Source: an uncultured Clostridia bacterium (GTDB taxonomy: Bacteria; Bacillota; Clostridia; TANB77; CAG-508). From it: a stretch of 64,000 bases of DNA. Where the stretch lies: the NCBI GenBank assembly GCA_947632035.1, contig CANRNR010000005.1, forward strand, positions 10,017 through 74,016. Direction: 5' to 3'. Under the pieces are notes generated by a model, which saw only the letters and a list, made by a program, of their open reading frames with translations, was not told where the DNA came from and made no database searches. Shown piece after piece: positions 51,679 through 56,227 of this stretch. The translations under genes and the position numbers were made by a program. Position 1 is the first letter of the stretch; each line of letters begins with the position of its first letter.

Positions 51679-52941
51679 ATGAAGTTTCAAAAAGAAGAAA
51701 ATACAAAAATACGTTATGAAAAAGATGGCATATATATAATGAATTACAGATATCAATCAAAAGATAAAATAACAGATTTAAAAGAAGAAGGAAAAATCTT
51801 TTATGATGCAATTTGTGGAAATGAAATAAACGATATTAGCAAGCTTCAAAAATTTATAGATAAAAAGTTTATAATACCAATTACTGAATATGATAGTCAT
51901 TTCATTGGTAAAACTACGGAGCACACTAGCTTACCAATATATATGACATTAGGAATTACTTCAAATTGCAATTATAATTGCAAACATTGTGGAAATGATT
52001 CAAGTATAAAAAAAGATACAGACTTAAAAAAGAGCGAAATTTATTCAATCATTGATGAAATGATTGATATGCAATTATTAAAATTAAATTTTACGGGAGG
52101 TGAGCCAACAACCAATAACGATTTACTTGATTATATAAGATATGCAAAAGGAAGAATTCCAAGAATAACATTAACAACTAATGGTAGTTTAATAGATAAA
52201 GACAAAGCAGAGGAGCTAAAAAAAGCAGGTCTTAATATGGCAAAGATTTCAATAGATGGTTTATCTAAATTTCATAACAAATTTAGAAACTGTGAATTTG
52301 CATATGAAAAAGCAATAGAAGCAATAAAAAATTTTCAGGAACAAAACATTGAAGTAAGAGTTCAATCTACATTAACTAAAGATAATCAAGATGACTTAAT
52401 AAAATTAATGGAAGTGCTTTCTAATTTAAAAATATCTCATCAAACCATAGTTCCAGTATGCCCTATAGGTAGAGCAGATAAAGATATGATGCTACTTAAA
52501 GAAGATTATAAGAAATTTATTGTGAGAATGTATAAAAAGGTAAAAGAATTAAATGAAAAAGGAACTTTAACACATTTCCAAATAAGACCTATATTTGGAG
52601 CAAAAGAATTATTTGATGATTCTATACAAACATCTTTTGAAACATTAAGTATTAAATATAGCTGTGAAGCCTTAAAAAATACTATGGAAATAAAGCCGAA
52701 TGGTGATGTAGTACCGTGTTCATTTTTAGATATTCCTATAGGAAATGTTAGAGAAAAGTCATTAAAAGAAATATGGACTGATGCTAAAAGCTATGAAATT
52801 AGAAAAATGTTTTCAAAAAATAATGAAAATGAAGAATGTAGAAAATGCAAGAAAAACAATATATGTAATGGTGGATGCATAGCAAACAAATATTATTATT
52901 ATAAAAAATTTGATAAAAAAGATCCTTATTGCTTTATATAA
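51679..52941 (+). CDS. Radical SAM enzyme with N-terminal RRE-like domain and C-terminal SPASM domain (RiPP maturase-like), first of a tandem pair
   Basis: CNYNCKHCGN (Cx3Cx2C), FTGGEPT, SPASM cysteines CSFLD...ECRKCKKNNICNGGCIANKYY, and N-terminal ...EKDGIYIMNYR... (PqqD-like). Confidence 0.75.
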   Translation: MKFQKEENTKIRYEKDGIYIMNYRYQSKDKITDLKEEGKIFYDAICGNEINDISKLQKFIDKKFIIPITEYDSHFIGKTTEHTSLPIYMTLGITSNCNYNCKHCGNDSSIKKDTDLKKSEIYSIIDEMIDMQLLKLNFTGGEPTTNNDLLDYIRYAKGRIPRITLTTNGSLIDKDKAEELKKAGLNMAKISIDGLSKFHNKFRNCEFAYEKAIEAIKNFQEQNIEVRVQSTLTKDNQDDLIKLMEVLSNLKISHQTIVPVCPIGRADKDMMLLKEDYKKFIVRMYKKVKELNEKGTLTHFQIRPIFGAKELFDDSIQTSFETLSIKYSCEALKNTMEIKPNGDVVPCSFLDIPIGNVREKSLKEIWTDAKSYEIRKMFSKNNENEECRKCKKNNICNGGCIANKYYYYKKFDKKDPYCFI

Positions 52942-52955
52942 GGTAGGAGGTAATA

Positions 52956-54245
52956 ATGTATAAAGAGTTGAGAAATATAGAAAAAAGGGAAGATGGTATA
53001 TATCTATTAAATAAATTAGGTCATGTAGCTAAAATACCTTTAGAATTAGAAGAGAATCTAAATAAATATGCAGTACTAAAAACAATTTCTGATGATACAC
53101 CTGAATTTATCTTAGAGCTTGCAGACATAGGACTATTGGAATATGAAAATTATACACCTAATGAAGACAAATTGTATTTTGATGATAGTATATTAAAAAG
53201 CAAAGATGATAAGCCAGTATATAAAGGTCCTATAATTGCTCATTTAGCAATAACTAATATGTGCAATATGAACTGTGATTATTGTTCAGTAAGGAATATG
53301 CACGGAAAAATAAAAACTGGTCTTTCAACAGAAGAATATAAAAAAATAATTGATAAACTTGTAGATATTGGAACATTTCAAATAGGCTTAACAGGAGGAG
53401 AGCCAACAACTAGAAAAGATTTAGTTGAATTAGTGAAATATGTAGCTAGCAAAAATGTTGCCTGTAACTTAACAACAAATGGATATGTTGTACCAGAAAA
53501 ATTAATAATTGAATTAAAAAATGCTGGTTTAACACAAGTTCAAATTTCATTAGATTCATATAAAAAAGAAGTTCACGAGAAATATAGAACAAAAGGTAGT
53601 TTCGATAGAGCAATAGAAACAGCAAAATTGTTTAAAAAACATGGATTCATTGTAGGAGTAGATACCGTTGTAACAAATAATAACATAGATGATATAGAAG
53701 ATTTTATGATATTTTTGGAAAAAAATAATTTTGATGGGCTAACTATAATAAAACTAAAACAGGGATATCTTGATTTAGAAACATTTAAAAAGGAAGTGCC
53801 TGAATATAATAAATATGCAGAATTAATAGATAAAATATGTAGATGGAAAGGAAAACTAGAAGTAACTATTGATTGCTCATCAGTAAATAATTTATGCAAA
53901 ACTTTAACTGAAAAGGAACAAAGCAAAATACATTCTGCTGGTTGTCCTGCTGGGCATACTCTTATTTCAATAGCACCAAATGGAGATATATATCCATGTG
54001 CAGCTTTAACAAATGAAAATTACAAAATTGGCAATATGCTAACAGATAATATAAAAGAATTATGGCAAACTAATAAAACTTTAAGAAAGTTAAGAGGAAT
54101 AAAAAATCACATTGAAGGAAAGTGTAAAAATTGTAAAAAAATTGATGTATGCAGAGGCGGATGTAGGGGAATAGCAGACAGTTTAAATGGAAAGCAATAT
54201 AGTAGTGATATAAATTGCAAATATACATATAAGGAGGTGATATAA
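52956..54245 (+). CDS. Radical SAM enzyme with N-terminal RRE-like domain and C-terminal SPASM domain, second of the tandem pair
   Basis: CNMNCDYCSV (Cx3Cx2C), LTGGEPT, SPASM CAALTNEN...KCKNCKKIDVCRGGCRGIA, and N-terminal REDGIYLLNKLGHVAKIP. Confidence 0.75.
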   Translation: MYKELRNIEKREDGIYLLNKLGHVAKIPLELEENLNKYAVLKTISDDTPEFILELADIGLLEYENYTPNEDKLYFDDSILKSKDDKPVYKGPIIAHLAITNMCNMNCDYCSVRNMHGKIKTGLSTEEYKKIIDKLVDIGTFQIGLTGGEPTTRKDLVELVKYVASKNVACNLTTNGYVVPEKLIIELKNAGLTQVQISLDSYKKEVHEKYRTKGSFDRAIETAKLFKKHGFIVGVDTVVTNNNIDDIEDFMIFLEKNNFDGLTIIKLKQGYLDLETFKKEVPEYNKYAELIDKICRWKGKLEVTIDCSSVNNLCKTLTEKEQSKIHSAGCPAGHTLISIAPNGDIYPCAALTNENYKIGNMLTDNIKELWQTNKTLRKLRGIKNHIEGKCKNCKKIDVCRGGCRGIADSLNGKQYSSDINCKYTYKEVI

Positions 54246-54247
54246 CA

Positions 54248-54322
54248 ATGGTTAAACTAATAATATCATCTATGGCTTGTGGCCATTACTGCTATTATAG
54301 CAGATTACCAAAAAGAAGCTAA
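54248..54322 (+). CDS. Candidate 24-aa Cys-containing peptide (MVKLIISSMACGHYCYYSRLPKRS), a possible RiPP precursor, immediately after the rSAM pair
   Basis: ATG at 54248 is preceded at 9 nt by a perfect SD AAGGAGGTGA (54230-54239), embedded in the 3' end of the upstream gene. A terminator hairpin follows about 45 nt downstream at 54371-54398. Confidence 0.3.
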   Translation: MVKLIISSMACGHYCYYSRLPKRS

Positions 54323-54370
54323 AATTTATATTAAACGCAGTATCAATAGTGAAAATTAAATTTGCTTTAC

Positions 54371-54398
54371 GGAAAAGTGCATTTTTTGCACTTTTTCC
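54371..54398 (+). terminator. Terminator hairpin closing the rSAM-rSAM-peptide unit (GGAAAAGTGCATTTTTTGCACTTTTTCC)
   Basis: Perfect 11-bp stem with a T-rich loop. Confidence 0.55.
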
Positions 54399-54481
54399 AT
54401 AAGGCAAAAAATTAATAGGAGGAAAATAAAGTAAAAATAATATATATTAATAATCATTTCAATAAAAAAATATCTAAAATA

Positions 54482-55075
54482 ATGAATGAGTTTGTATTAG
54501 GCATAAAAAATATATATGGAGATAAATACATAAACAGAATCATAAAAAGGTTAAATGAATTAGAAGAAATTAAATATGAGTATAATGATAGCAAATATAT
54601 AGCATCCAGCAAGAAAAATTATATTGTATTTTTTAAAAATATAAAAGATGAAAAGAATTTTAAGTATGTTTTAGAACATGAGTTATTCCATTTTATACAA
54701 AAAGAAAATAGTGAGTTTGAAAATATTCCTGAAAAATACAAAGATATTTTAAGCAAGGATATAAAGATAGAGCTACTAGAAGAGGTATTTGTGCAGTATT
54801 TTACAGCTAAGATAAATAATAAAAAACCTGAATATGAAACTAAGATTAAAGATGGTAAATTAGTAAAATATTGGCTAAATGAATGCTATAAAGATATCGT
54901 ATGGATTGGTGAAGAATTAGAGCAAAGAATAGGCGAAATAAGAATGTTTGAAATGTATATGGATGATGATATATATAAAAGAGAAATAAATAACTTTGAT
55001 AAAAAATATGGAGAAAACGAATTTGCTAAATATATAGAAAAAATAGAAAACATTTATAAAATAAAGAAACCCTAG
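54482..55075 (+). CDS. Hypothetical protein with an HExxH motif (LEHELFHFIQ), a possible zinc metallopeptidase
   Basis: 197-aa ORF. A single HExxH with a downstream Glu (ENSEFE). No family assignment possible by eye. Confidence 0.4.
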   Translation: MNEFVLGIKNIYGDKYINRIIKRLNELEEIKYEYNDSKYIASSKKNYIVFFKNIKDEKNFKYVLEHELFHFIQKENSEFENIPEKYKDILSKDIKIELLEEVFVQYFTAKINNKKPEYETKIKDGKLVKYWLNECYKDIVWIGEELEQRIGEIRMFEMYMDDDIYKREINNFDKKYGENEFAKYIEKIENIYKIKKP

Positions 55076-55120: not shown

Positions 55121-56227
55121 TTACAGGGTGCGAAGCTTAGCAAGAGAATGATTTCGATAAGCATTTTCAGAAGTAACTTCTCGAATTACAGAAATGCAAG
55201 GCGGAATATTTACTCCTGAAGATTCTTCTGTAAGCTCAATCTCAAGGATGGCTCGATTTTCAGAGAAATCGTAAAAGTCCATTTCAAAGTACTGCCCCTT
55301 GTAAGCAAAGCAATAACGCTTCTTTACAACAGGAGAAACTGAAGTATCGATTTGCGTTAGATACTGAATGTACTCTTTCTCTGTAATCTTTTTCTCTATT
55401 TCTACACGTTTAAGGTTACTAACTTTGCGCTTTTCGGTGTAGTAATAGGAAAAGCTTCCATTTTGACCGCGTTGACGAACACGTCGTTCAGTACTGTCAT
55501 CATCAGGAATAAGATAAGTTTGAACGATATCCACCTGCGTAAAATTGACATAGTGCTGAAGCTCCTCAAAGGAAGGCTTATTGATTAGGTATTTGCGCTC
55601 GATTTCCAACGGAATAGGCTCGCCAAGAACGGAATAGATTTCCTTCATAAGCTTAAATATTTTACCGTCGAAATTGGTAGAATTGTCGATTACACGAAAG
55701 TGTGCATGACCGGTCCAATTCTTAATTCCGAGCTCATCGAGATGCCTTGCTTCTTCTAATGTTTCTGTGCGGGCCTTATTGTTTTCCAAGGTATAAAATT
55801 CCTCGGCGCCATTAGCAGCAGTTACAAGATGAAAAACCGCATCATAATGATCTCTTGCCTCAACCTCTGTGAGATTAAAATATTGAAGAATTTGATTAAA
55901 TTCTTCGGCTGAAACGTAACTCTTGTTGTCCATTATCCCACGATCGTGCAACAGAACAATTTTATCCGAAGGAATTAGTTTTTCAGCAACCTCTTTGTAT
56001 AAGTCTTCTTTGTATAGTTGCTTTTTAAAAACAACATACTGAAAGTCAAGCAAATTGAGAGAATTGCCGAAAGGACGAATACCGGTAGAAATAAGCTCTG
56101 TTGCAGTTTCTGGAATAATTAAAACATAATAACCCCGACTGCTTAGTTCTTGCTCAATGATAGACAAAGCAGTTGTCTTACCAGAACAAGGACCTCCTGT
56201 AATAACAAGTGACCAAATCTGTTTCAC
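55121..56227 (-). CDS. Fusion protein: N-terminal P-loop NTPase/kinase (NadR/AAA_28-like) and C-terminal CYTH (triphosphate tunnel metalloenzyme) domain, in a GC-elevated segment
   Basis: Walker A GGPCSGKTT, Walker B-like VLLHDRG, and the CYTH signature EIERKYLI (ExExK) followed by RVRQRG...YYYTEKRK...EIEL. Confidence 0.6.
   Translation of the reverse strand: MKQIWSLVITGGPCSGKTTALSIIEQELSSRGYYVLIIPETATELISTGIRPFGNSLNLLDFQYVVFKKQLYKEDLYKEVAEKLIPSDKIVLLHDRGIMDNKSYVSAEEFNQILQYFNLTEVEARDHYDAVFHLVTAANGAEEFYTLENNKARTETLEEARHLDELGIKNWTGHAHFRVIDNSTNFDGKIFKLMKEIYSVLGEPIPLEIERKYLINKPSFEELQHYVNFTQVDIVQTYLIPDDDSTERRVRQRGQNGSFSYYYTEKRKVSNLKRVEIEKKITEKEYIQYLTQIDTSVSPVVKKRYCFAYKGQYFEMDFYDFSENRAILEIELTEESSGVNIPPCISVIREVTSENAYRNHSLAKLRTL

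What the first reader, a model, noticed from the sequence alone, without database searches (positions are those of the whole stretch)
51679..55075. Compact RiPP-like locus: two tandem RRE-rSAM-SPASM maturases, a 24-aa Cys peptide ORF with a perfect SD, a terminator, then an HExxH protein
Both enzymes (51679-52941 and 52956-54245) carry a PqqD-like RRE N-terminal domain, a Cx3Cx2C radical-SAM cluster, GGEPT and a full SPASM cysteine array. That architecture is typical of sactisynthase and ranthipeptide-type maturases. Directly after the second stop codon, a perfect AAGGAGGTGA sits 9 nt before an ATG opening MVKLIISSMACGHYCYYSRLPKRS. A strong hairpin follows at 54371-54398. A separately transcribed HExxH protein at 54482 could be a leader peptidase. 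A NUDIX gene lies upstream. I do not recognise a described product matching this peptide. A tandem pair of RRE-rSAM-SPASM enzymes with a trailing rather than leading short precursor is unusual.
Basis: partly seen in the sequence, partly recalled or inferred. Interest (0 to 1): 0.75.

Follow-up and report, generated by a model that had tools for sequence, protein, structure and literature searches.

The report
NrtR-controlled two-maturase radical-SAM peptide cassette
A real, previously unannotated 24-residue peptide gene sits behind two radical-SAM enzymes and a NAD-type (NrtR) repressor; the same cassette, with the same Gly-His-Tyr-x-aromatic core, recurs from gut Clostridia to DPANN archaea, which looks more like a conserved physiological peptide or cofactor precursor than a bacteriocin.

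Summary
Both ORFs are radical-SAM/SPASM proteins. Each has Cx3Cx2C, GGEPT, a full SPASM cysteine array and an RRE-like N-domain. The RRE is seen only by structure: the best PDB match is SuiB over the full length, and Pfam PqqD does not hit.

The 24-aa ORF is a genuine gene. A homologous peptide with its own GGAGG Shine-Dalgarno follows rSAM2 in every orthologous locus long enough to show it (16 distinct peptides, bacteria and archaea). Among eight close relatives, 17 of 20 variable sites are third-codon positions.

The sactipeptide/ranthipeptide reading fails. The two Cys are not conserved (C to A/S/T/G). The conserved core is G-H-Y-[A/C/S]-[Y/F]-[Y/F/L]-x-x-L-P-x-R.

The "NUDIX gene" is an NrtR-family repressor, present upstream in all 10 bacterial loci with enough flank. 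Two TGTGTA-N5-TACACA operators, each abutting a TATAAT, are conserved in the close clade.

The HExxH protein is specific to that clade.

No NCBIfam or Pfam model and no paper found covers the enzymes or the peptide.

Best reading: an undescribed NrtR-regulated RiPP-type cassette. The likely chemistry is His/aromatic side-chain crosslinking; this is inferred.

The parts
50796..50823 (+). Consensus sigma-70-type promoter of the nrtR operon (TTGACA-16-TATAAT)
   Evidence: 12/12 match; sequence
50823..50839 (.). Operator 1: palindrome TGTGTATGTAATACACA, starting at the last T of the -10 box
   Evidence: only 2 matches in 64 kb, 0.3 expected. The position is conserved in L009, L013-L018 and L020. 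It contains the NrtR core GT-N7-AC (PMC2330246).
50870..51541 (+). NrtR-family regulator: Nudix-like domain plus NrtR winged-helix domain; the Nudix box is partly degenerate (REMIEK)
   Evidence: Pfam NrtR_WHD 83 bits and NUDIX 49.5 bits, both above cutoff. NF050029 scores 142.7 bits, below its 400 cutoff. It lies directly upstream of rSAM1 in all 10 bacterial loci with enough flank.
51531..51569 (.). 18-bp-stem inverted repeat spanning the nrtR stop codon; possible partial terminator or attenuator between nrtR and rSAM1
   Evidence: listed on the - strand; sequence
51577..51593 (.). Operator 2: palindrome TGTGTAAAAAATACACA, starting at the last T of a TATAAT (51572-51577), upstream of rSAM1
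   Evidence: It is conserved between nrtR and rSAM1 in L009, L013-L018 and L020, including a symmetric TGCGTA...TACGCA variant.
51679..52941 (+). rSAM1: RRE-like N-domain (about residues 1-85), radical-SAM domain, SPASM domain. It is the faster-evolving maturase. The N-domain is absent from distant orthologues (337-348 aa).
52956..54245 (+). rSAM2: RRE-like N-domain (about residues 1-90), radical-SAM domain, SPASM domain. It is the conserved core maturase, 43-48% identical between Clostridia and DPANN archaea over its full length. The peptide gene always follows it.
54231..54240 (+). Shine-Dalgarno AAGGAGGTGA of the peptide gene, here overlapping the last codons of rSAM2
   Evidence: All 20 distinct peptide-gene DNA versions (encoding 16 distinct peptides) except L024 carry a GGAGG/GGGGG-type SD just upstream of the ATG.
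54248..54322 (+). Precursor peptide MVKLIISSMACGHYCYYSRLPKRS: about 11 leader-like residues followed by the conserved core G-H-Y-x-[Y/F]-[Y/F/L]-x-x-L-P-x-R
54361..54408 (+). Stem-loop ending the operon (core 54371-54398)
   Evidence: -24 kcal/mol, z = -4.3. Hairpins follow the peptide stop in most relatives, several with U-tracts.
54482..55075 (+). HExxH...EE protein (putative small zinc metallopeptidase). A clade-specific neighbour and a possible, unproven processing enzyme.
   Evidence: Present downstream in 7 close loci at 61-69% identity; H66ExxH70 and E100E101 are invariant. It is absent from L011, L012, L023 and the archaea. Pfam gives only a sub-threshold match (PhageMetallopep, 17.9 bits against a 23.7 cutoff); NCBIfam, PHROGs and PDB give nothing significant.
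55121..56227 (-). AAA_28 P-loop (NadR-kinase-like) plus CYTH protein; a possible loose accessory
   Evidence: Pfam. The orthologue (44% identity, full length) lies inside the operon in L011. AAA_28 genes abut the cassette in archaeal L029, L035 and L038. However, the family is large and usually sits elsewhere.

Best explanation
The locus is an operon: nrtR, rSAM1, rSAM2, a 24-aa peptide gene, then a terminator.

Proposed mechanism:
1. The NrtR-family repressor binds two TGTGTA-N5-TACACA operators. One overlaps the nrtR promoter. The other sits in front of rSAM1. Each abuts a -10 box. By analogy with characterised NrtRs, an ADP-ribose-type ligand would release the repressor, so expression would follow NAD turnover (inferred).
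2. The peptide is translated from its own strong SD.
3. Its first ~11 residues, which have an alternating hydrophobic pattern, act as a mini-leader. They are bound by the RRE-like N-domain of rSAM2, and in this clade also by that of rSAM1 (inferred from the fold).
4. The two radical-SAM/SPASM paralogues (33% identical) each install one modification on the invariant core G-H-Y-[A/C/S]-[Y/F]-[Y/F/L]-x.
5. The Cys are dispensable, while His and the aromatic at +3 are fixed. The core also reads as two back-to-back aromatic-X-X motifs. The most likely chemistry is therefore radical C-C (or C-N/C-O) side-chain crosslinking of His and Tyr/Phe, of the cyclophane or triceptide type, not thioether formation (inferred, not shown).
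6. The product is probably a physiological molecule (cofactor-like, signalling or regulatory) rather than a variable bacteriocin. The core is conserved across domains. There is no transporter or immunity gene. In archaea the cassette sits among housekeeping genes.
For: Shown:
- Enzyme domains and motifs.
- RRE-rSAM-SPASM fold with SuiB as the best match for both enzymes.
- The peptide gene follows rSAM2 in window, L003-L018, L020-L034 and L036, in two gene orders: rSAM1-rSAM2-pep and rSAM2-pep-rSAM1.
- Purifying selection: 18 of 24 codons vary synonymously, and 17 of 20 variable sites are third positions, p = 3e-6.
- Invariant G, H and L; near-invariant Y, aromatic, P and R; Cys replaced by A/S/T/G.
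- An SD is present upstream of all but one peptide gene.
- Hairpins follow the peptide stop.
- NrtR lies upstream in all 10 informative bacterial loci.
- Two operators are unique in the 64 kb window and positionally conserved. They match the published NrtR core GT-N7-AC.
- No transporter or immunity gene recurs, and archaeal neighbours are housekeeping genes.

Precedent for His-x-Ser and Tyr-x-Lys cyclophanes made by a radical-SAM enzyme: minviopeptin (PMC12912966).
Against: - No experimental or transcript evidence is available.
- The RRE is not recognised by Pfam PqqD.
- The crosslink chemistry is pure inference from residue conservation. Y+1 is Met in one lineage (L011).
- L029 has rSAM2 and the peptide but no rSAM1 within 6 kb, so two modifications are not universal.
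- The NrtR ligand is unknown. NF050029 scores well below its cutoff, and some NrtR-family members regulate sugar use, not NAD (PMC4666351, listed).
- In the more distant bacterial loci (L011, L012, L023) the operator motif is weak or absent under my pattern.
Confidence: 0.72

Rival explanations
1. One reading: a sactipeptide or ranthipeptide-type bacteriocin locus. The two maturases would make Cys-to-carbon thioether bridges on the Cys-containing 24-mer, and the HExxH protein would remove the leader.
For: The RRE-rSAM-SPASM architecture is shared with sactisynthases: CteB 5wgg and SkfB 6efn are among the structural hits. The window peptide has two Cys. An HExxH...EE protein lies downstream with invariant motif residues.
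Against: - Both Cys are replaced in orthologues: position -2 is C/G/T/S/A and position +2 is A/C/S. The archaeal and L011/L012/L021 peptides have no Cys in the core at all.
- PapB, StsB and AlbA models score 88-131 bits against cutoffs of 340-850.
- The core is invariant across domains, unlike bacteriocin cores.
- No ABC transporter or immunity gene recurs.
- The HExxH gene is missing outside one clade.
Confidence: 0.06
2. The cassette makes a peptide-derived small-molecule cofactor or NAD/ADP-ribose-linked metabolite, PQQ- or mycofactocin-like in logic. The crosslinked His/Tyr core would be excised by housekeeping (or HExxH) proteases. NrtR control and the recurrent NadR-kinase-like AAA_28 neighbour would reflect a role in pyridine-nucleotide economy in auxotrophic, reduced-genome organisms.
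For: - The core motif is invariant from Clostridia to DPANN archaea, like PqqA and MftA and unlike antibiotics.
- The best sequence-profile PDB hit is PqqE, 2e-29.
- NrtR is obligatorily linked in bacteria, with operators in front of the maturases.
- NrtRs characteristically sit next to the NAD genes they control (PMC2330246).
- An AAA_28 gene lies inside or beside the cassette in L011, L029, L035, L038 and the window.
- rSAM2 forms a compact, slowly evolving family.
Against: - There are no PqqB/C- or MftD/E/F-type tailoring genes and no dedicated protease in most loci.
- PqqE and MftC models score below their cutoffs.
- AAA_28-CYTH homologues are abundant and mostly unlinked.
- No NAD gene was seen next to the cassette.
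- The archaeal loci have no NrtR.
Confidence: 0.17
3. The two enzymes are non-RiPP cofactor maturases of NirJ/AhbC-AhbD type (tandem SPASM pair acting on a tetrapyrrole or other small molecule). The small ORF would be an unrelated small protein or translational coupling element.
For: The best NCBIfam hits are NirJ2 and AhbD, at 160-178 bits. Tandem rSAM/SPASM pairs are typical of alternative haem and haem d1 pathways (established knowledge). Some sources label homologues 'AdoMet-dependent heme synthase'.
Against: - The scores are a third of the 500-650 bit cutoffs.
- NirJ/Ahb enzymes lack an N-terminal RRE, which rSAM2 keeps in all lineages.
- The peptide co-migrates with rSAM2 even when gene order changes.
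- No sirohaem or haem genes are nearby.
Confidence: 0.04

Closest known systems
SuiB / streptide-type RRE-rSAM-SPASM crosslinking maturases (PDB 5v1t)
   Same: Three-domain architecture: N-terminal RRE, Cx3Cx2C radical-SAM barrel, and a SPASM domain with two auxiliary clusters. It is the best structural match for both enzymes. It acts on a short precursor to make a side-chain C-C crosslink.
   Different: Only 17-21% sequence identity. The precursor motif is different (no KxxxW). Two paralogous maturases act on one peptide. The precursor trails instead of leading. The cassette is NrtR-regulated and occurs in both bacteria and archaea.
Triceptides / three-residue cyclophane RiPPs, e.g. minviopeptin (PMC12912966)
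   Same: The core can be read as two aromatic-X-X motifs, H-Y-[A/C/S] and [Y/F]-[Y/F/L]-x. This resembles the YSK and HAS motifs crosslinked by the radical-SAM enzyme MicB. Minviopeptin also links a His-cyclophane peptide to NAD/ADP-ribose chemistry.
   Different: Homology of the enzymes to 3-CyFEs was not tested. There is no ADP-ribosyltransferase or alpha-KG enzyme here. The leader is far shorter (about 11 aa). The crosslinks are unproven.
PqqA/PqqE(/PqqD) and MftA/MftC(/MftB): peptide-derived cofactor systems
   Same: A very short (22-32 aa) precursor with an invariant aromatic-containing core, an rSAM/SPASM maturase with RRE recognition, and wide, conserved distribution. PqqE is the best sequence-profile PDB hit.
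   Different: TIGR02109 and TIGR03962 score below their cutoffs. There is no E-x3-Y motif or C-terminal GVY. No PqqB/C/F or MftD/E/F partners are present. Two rSAM paralogues are present instead of one.
NirJ1/NirJ2 and AhbC/AhbD tandem rSAM/SPASM pairs
   Same: Adjacent paralogous rSAM/SPASM genes. These are the top NCBIfam matches by score.
   Different: The scores are about one third of the cutoffs. An N-terminal RRE and a conserved peptide partner are present. There is no tetrapyrrole context.
NrtR regulons of NAD metabolism (Rodionov et al. 2008, PMC2330246)
   Same: A Nudix plus winged-helix regulator, autoregulated and adjacent to its target operon, with palindromic operators carrying the GT-N7-AC core and overlapping promoters.
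   Different: The target genes are radical-SAM maturases and a peptide, not nad/pnc/pnu/prs genes. No paper holding both 'NrtR' and 'radical SAM' was found.

Membership tests
RRE-dependent radical-SAM/SPASM RiPP maturase systems (general class) | Cx3Cx2C radical-SAM cluster motif and GGE SAM-binding motif | tested here: met
   rSAM1 has C97/C101/C104 and TGGEPT. rSAM2 has C103/C107/C110 and TGGEPT. These residues are invariant in the alignments. Pfam Radical_SAM scores 95 and 111 bits.
RRE-dependent radical-SAM/SPASM RiPP maturase systems (general class) | SPASM domain with Cx2Cx5Cx3C and additional Cys for two auxiliary clusters | tested here: met
   Pfam SPASM scores 57.5 and 44.2 bits against a 21.5 cutoff. 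The invariant Cys arrays are seen.
RRE-dependent radical-SAM/SPASM RiPP maturase systems (general class) | RiPP recognition element (PqqD-like winged helix-turn-helix) | tested here: inconclusive
   There is no Pfam PqqD hit even at E<=10. The AF2 N-domains are beta3-4/alpha2 with pLDDT about 90. Full-length Foldseek alignment to RRE-bearing SuiB spans 450-466 columns. The N-domain was not searched on its own.
RRE-dependent radical-SAM/SPASM RiPP maturase systems (general class) | Adjacent, co-inherited short precursor peptide gene | tested here: met
   16 distinct homologous peptides lie directly after rSAM2 in bacteria and archaea, under purifying selection.
RRE-dependent radical-SAM/SPASM RiPP maturase systems (general class) | Enzyme-dependent post-translational modification of the peptide | not testable with these tools
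   Needs co-expression and mass spectrometry.
Sactipeptides | Conserved Cys donors in the core (S-to-C-alpha thioethers) | tested here: not met
   The Cys at -2 and +2 relative to His are replaced by G/T/S/A and by A/S in orthologues.
Sactipeptides | Maturase scores as a known sactisynthase family (AlbA, StsB, etc.) | tested here: not met
   StsB NF045574 scores 98 and 131 bits against a 625 cutoff. AlbA NF012164 scores 88 bits against 850.
Ranthipeptides (SCIFF/PapA type) | Cys-rich C-terminal core and a PapB/SCIFF-type maturase | tested here: not met
   PapB NF047865 scores 105.6 and 100.4 bits against a 340 cutoff. The Cys are not conserved.
Triceptides (3-residue cyclophane RiPPs) | Aromatic(1)-X2-X3 motif(s) in the core | tested here: met
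   H-Y/M-[A/C/S] followed by [Y/F]-[Y/F/L]-x occurs in all 16 peptides. This is a motif-level match only.
Triceptides (3-residue cyclophane RiPPs) | Maturase belongs to the 3-CyFE clade; aromatic-C to C-beta crosslink shown | not tested
   No 3-CyFE reference sequences or models were compared. The chemistry needs MS/NMR.
PQQ biosynthesis | PqqE equivalog score, PqqA E-x3-Y motif, pqqBCD(F) partners | tested here: not met
   TIGR02109 scores 103 and 143 bits against a 381 cutoff. The peptide has no E-x3-Y. No pqq genes lie in the neighbourhoods.
Mycofactocin | MftC equivalog score, MftA C-terminal GVY, mftBDEF partners | tested here: not met
   TIGR03962 scores 132 and 150 bits against a 265 cutoff. 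The peptide C-termini are variable and carry no GVY.
NirJ / AhbC-AhbD haem-pathway rSAM pairs | Equivalog score to NirJ1/NirJ2/AhbC/AhbD; tetrapyrrole gene context | tested here: not met
   The best score is 178 bits against cutoffs of 500-650. No such gene context was seen.
NrtR family regulators | N-terminal Nudix-like domain plus C-terminal NrtR winged-helix domain | tested here: met
   PF00293 scores 49.5 bits (cutoff 21.1). PF21906 scores 83.4 bits (cutoff 27).
NrtR family regulators | Palindromic operator with GT-N7-AC core at promoters of adjacent target genes | tested here: met
   TGTGTA-N5-TACACA occurs at 50823 and 51577, each abutting a TATAAT. Both are conserved in 8 related loci. 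The consensus comes from PMC2330246.
NrtR family regulators | Equivalog to the ADP-ribose-responsive repressor (NF050029); ADPR-relieved DNA binding | tested here: not met
   142.7 bits against a 400 cutoff. The ligand response is not testable here.

The most novel reading that the evidence does not exclude
The cassette encodes a third kind of ribosomal-peptide-derived cofactor or metabolite, after PQQ and mycofactocin. It would be built from an invariant Gly-His-Tyr-x-aromatic core by two radical-SAM enzymes and wired into NAD/ADP-ribose homeostasis through an NrtR repressor, with a NadR-kinase-like partner in some lineages. It would be shared, through transfer or ancient descent, between anaerobic gut Clostridia/Bacilli and genome-reduced DPANN archaea.
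Probability: 0.2. Interest if true: 0.9.

Novelty: new variant of a known kind. Interest (0 to 1): 0.66.

Why it matters
Radical-SAM RiPP families are found often. Very few have a core that stays fixed across bacteria and archaea, and the known examples (PQQ, mycofactocin) turned out to be cofactors.

This cassette has four useful properties:
- It is tiny: two enzymes and a 22-32 aa peptide.
- It lives in uncultured anaerobes and DPANN archaea with minimal genomes.
- It is unannotated. In an exact-sequence look-up only 2 of 7 peptides had ever been called as genes, both unnamed, and no HMM exists.
- In bacteria it is under a regulator family otherwise devoted largely to NAD supply.

It gives a directly testable three-gene system for new radical chemistry on His/Tyr. 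It also gives a concrete lead to an unrecognised link between NAD status and a modified peptide. In addition, it shows that NrtR regulons extend beyond the catalogued nad/pnc/pnu/prs and pentose genes.

Tried and rejected
1. Pfam and NCBIfam on the peptides and on the isolated N-domains gave no hits. RRE status therefore rests on structure only.
2. NCBIfam on both enzymes returned 74-97 weak hits, none near its cutoff. I rejected NirJ/Ahb, PqqE, MftC, PapB, StsB, WgkB, DynA, ScmE/F and GeoRSP membership.
3. The genome-contig scan with the single protein returned only six close relatives and one unrelated archaeal rSAM array, L019. Diversity came from the metagenome scan with the alignment.
4. 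Exact-sequence look-up of seven peptides found two, both unnamed.
5. I tested whether the AAA_28-CYTH neighbour ties the cassette to NAD salvage. Its family is large (>5,700 hits) and its contexts elsewhere are unrelated. There is no NrtR-type site upstream of it in the window. I kept it only as a weak, recurrent association.
6. Multi-module rSAM fusion proteins from the representative search are distant (22-31% identity). They are not Rosetta-stone fusions of rSAM1 and rSAM2.
7. A survey of archaeal neighbourhoods for a functional theme found only housekeeping genes.
8. Eight literature searches, using combinations of the terms NrtR, radical SAM, SPASM, RiPP, NadR, Nudix, DPANN, Woesearchaeota, triceptide and peptide-derived cofactor, found no description of this system.
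9. The HExxH protein has no significant match in Pfam, NCBIfam, PHROGs or PDB.

Full report
**1. What is in the sequence**

Both pass the Pfam thresholds for Radical_SAM (95 and 111 bits) and SPASM (57 and 44 bits). rSAM1 carries C97-x3-C101-x2-C104 and TGGEPT. rSAM2 carries C103-x3-C107-x2-C110, TGGEPT and C390-x2-C393-x5-C399-x3-C403. All of these residues are invariant in alignments of homologues. The two proteins are paralogues, 33% identical over the catalytic and SPASM parts.

The claimed PqqD-like RRE is not seen by Pfam, even when the N-termini are searched alone at E<=10. AlphaFold2 models are confident (pLDDT 91.3 and 88.6) and give each protein an N-terminal beta-sheet plus two-helix domain. 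Foldseek against the PDB puts SuiB, the streptide RRE-rSAM-SPASM maturase, first for both, aligned over 450-466 columns at E about 1e-20. SkfB, CteB, PqqE and anSME follow. I accept the RRE-like domains on structural grounds only.

The small ORF is at 54248-54322. Its AAGGAGGTGA (54231-54240) lies inside the last codons of rSAM2, not after the stop. The hairpin is real: 54361-54408, -24 kcal/mol, z = -4.3. It lacks a clean U-tract, and the terminator scan missed it.

**2. The small ORF is a real gene**

I collected orthologous loci in three ways: exact-protein look-ups, a species-genome scan and a metagenome scan with an rSAM2 alignment.

In every orthologous locus with sequence downstream of rSAM2, a homologous small ORF follows. 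Examples:
- MVKLIISAMACGHYCYYSRLPKR[DAG] in the close clade
- MVKVIVSAMATGHYSYFSRLPERKKK
- MKVIVSKMAAGHMSYFTRLPRR
- MIKILVTAMQTGHYCYFSGLPRR
- In DPANN archaea: MAEVLVDLLQGGHYAFLEELPQRLGSKN, MEVRADKFLSGHYAYFCELPDR... and MKIRVDKLQGGHYSFLCELPKI

The SD is independent of the rSAM2 C-terminus. In relatives it lies after the stop, and in L013/L016 the whole SD-peptide unit sits about 95 nt downstream. All versions but one (L024) have a GGAGG-type SD.

Among eight close relatives, 18 of 24 codons vary synonymously and only positions 8 and 24 change residue. Of the 20 variable nucleotide sites in codons 1-23, 17 are third positions (binomial p = 3e-6). When the gene order changes in archaea to rSAM2-peptide-rSAM1, the peptide stays directly behind rSAM2. 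A hairpin follows the peptide stop in most relatives.

**3. What the peptide says about chemistry**

The following holds across 16 distinct peptides, numbered relative to His:

| Position | Residue(s) | Count |
|---|---|---|
| -1 | Gly | 16/16 |
| 0 | His | 16/16 |
| +1 | Tyr | 15/16 (Met once) |
| +2 | Ala/Cys/Ser | small residue in all |
| +3 | Tyr/Phe | 16/16 |
| +4 | Tyr/Phe/Leu | all |
| +7 | Leu | 16/16 |
| +8 | Pro | 15/16 |
| +10 | Arg | 14/16 |

The two Cys of the window peptide, at -2 and +2, are replaced by G/T/S/A and by A/S elsewhere. Thioether (sactipeptide or ranthipeptide) chemistry therefore cannot be the conserved function. The PapB, StsB and AlbA models also score far below their cutoffs.

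The roughly 11 residues before the Gly have an alternating hydrophobic pattern and are the obvious mini-leader for the RRE. The core reads as two consecutive aromatic-X-X motifs, H-Y-[A/C/S] and [Y/F]-[Y/F/L]-x. This is the substrate logic of radical-SAM three-residue cyclophane synthases. The recently described minviopeptin has exactly a Tyr-x-Lys and a His-x-Ser cyclophane made by a radical-SAM enzyme (PMC12912966). I take one crosslink per paralogue as the most likely mechanism. This is inference, not a tested result. L029 carries rSAM2 and the peptide with no rSAM1 within 6 kb.

**4. The NUDIX gene is part of the system**

The upstream ORF (50870-51541) has a Nudix domain plus the NrtR winged-helix domain, both above Pfam cutoffs. 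It scores below the NCBIfam equivalog cutoff (142.7 against 400).

An orthologous gene lies immediately upstream of rSAM1 in all ten bacterial loci that extend far enough. rSAM2 identity in these loci ranges from 100% down to 52%.

In the window, a perfect TTGACA-16-TATAAT promoter (50796-50823) is abutted by the palindrome TGTGTATGTAATACACA (50823-50839). A second palindrome, TGTGTAAAAAATACACA (51577-51593), abuts a TATAAT in the nrtR-rSAM1 spacer. These are the only two matches in 64 kb, against 0.3 expected. Both are conserved in position in L009, L013-L018 and L020, including a symmetric TGCGTA...TACGCA variant. They contain the GT-N7-AC core reported for NrtR operators (PMC2330246).

The operon is therefore nrtR-rSAM1-rSAM2-peptide-hairpin, apparently autoregulated. 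The archaeal loci have no NrtR. Their cassette sits among housekeeping genes: exosome, thermosome, topoisomerase, GluRS and CDC48.

**5. Accessory genes**

The HExxH protein (54482-55075) has orthologues only in the closest clade: 7 loci at 61-69% identity, with H66ExxH70 and E100E101 invariant. It matches nothing significant in Pfam, NCBIfam, PHROGs or PDB. It may trim the peptide in that clade but is not part of the conserved system.

The convergent AAA_28 (NadR-kinase-like) plus CYTH gene (55121-56227) has an orthologue inside the operon in L011 (nrtR-AAA_28-rSAM1-rSAM2-peptide). AAA_28 genes also abut the cassette in archaeal L029, L035 and L038. However, the family has more than 5,700 detectable members that mostly sit elsewhere. 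I rate this link as suggestive only.

**6. Distribution and relation to known families**

rSAM2 homologues with full-length coverage, including the N-domain, come from Candidatus Scatovivens and other uncultured Clostridia, from Bacilli, and from Woesearchaeota and Nanoarchaeota at 43-48% identity. In a library clustered at 50% identity, the family collapses to about six to eight representatives (688 down to 403 bits). Scores then fall to generic rSAM/SPASM levels. The family is compact and slowly evolving. rSAM1 evolves faster and loses its N-domain in distant lineages.

No NCBIfam equivalog is approached. The best are NirJ2/AhbD at 160-178 bits against 500, then WgkB, MftC, GeoRSP and PqqE, all below cutoff. 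The best PDB sequence-profile hit is PqqE at 2e-29. The peptides match no Pfam or NCBIfam model. Only two of seven had ever been called as genes, and both are unnamed. Eight full-text searches found no description of the system.

**7. Verdict**

The locus works like an RRE-guided radical-SAM peptide-maturation system. It is not a member of any defined RiPP or cofactor family tested here. Three features make a physiological product more likely than a bacteriocin: core invariance across domains, the absence of export or immunity genes, and NrtR control.

The most novel reading still open is a new peptide-derived cofactor or metabolite tied to NAD/ADP-ribose status. I give it about 0.2.

Noticed in passing
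window 54410-54482: The window's HExxH gene is 10-21 residues shorter at the N-terminus than its seven orthologues (197 aa against 207-218 aa). An AGGAGG at about 54418-54423 is followed by stop codons, and the annotated ATG at 54482 has no SD. The 5' end may be degenerate or may use an unusual start.
   Followed up: partly
window 51531-51569: A long inverted repeat (18-bp stem) spans the nrtR stop codon, just before the second operator. It could attenuate read-through from nrtR into the maturase genes.
   Followed up: partly
L029 5333-7423: This archaeal locus has AAA_28, rSAM2 and the peptide but no rSAM1 within 6 kb. The second maturase may be dispensable or encoded elsewhere.
   Followed up: partly
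L025 5011-5844, L026, L029 4391-5227, L030, L033 (minus strand): A conserved protein of about 279 aa with no Pfam match lies divergently upstream of rSAM2 in five archaeal loci. It may be an archaeal counterpart of the regulator or an accessory protein.
   Followed up: partly
L019 1300-13600: A contig from an uncultured archaeon carries about ten radical-SAM/SPASM paralogues in a row, 23-29% identical to the query. It is a different, highly expanded rSAM array.
   Followed up: no
L014 9380-9460: Directly after the peptide gene lies an exceptionally long, near-perfect GC-rich hairpin (-69 kcal/mol, GGGACGCCCTTGACCAAACGGGG...). It looks like a repeat element, not a simple terminator.
   Followed up: no
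proteins P0247-P0260, P0368: Many giant proteins (660-1,927 aa) contain two to six radical-SAM/SPASM matched stretches in one chain. They are only 22-31% identical to rSAM1 and rSAM2.
   Followed up: partly
window 55121-56227 (-) and P0492, P0496, P0508: The AAA_28+CYTH protein belongs to a very large Clostridia family. Some members carry an N-terminal HTH_3 domain, which recalls NadR. Its CYTH part matches phrog_6660. The function is unknown.
   Followed up: partly
window 49107-50668: A 399-aa multi-pass membrane protein with no family match and a 63-aa DUF1737-like protein lie upstream of nrtR. They occur in this genome only and not in related loci.
   Followed up: no
L003-L008 around the cassette: In one Woesearchaeota lineage the cassette is flanked by two glutaredoxins, a thioredoxin-reductase-like and a dihydrolipoamide-dehydrogenase-like flavoprotein, VKOR and G6PD. 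This redox neighbourhood is not seen in other archaeal loci.
   Followed up: no
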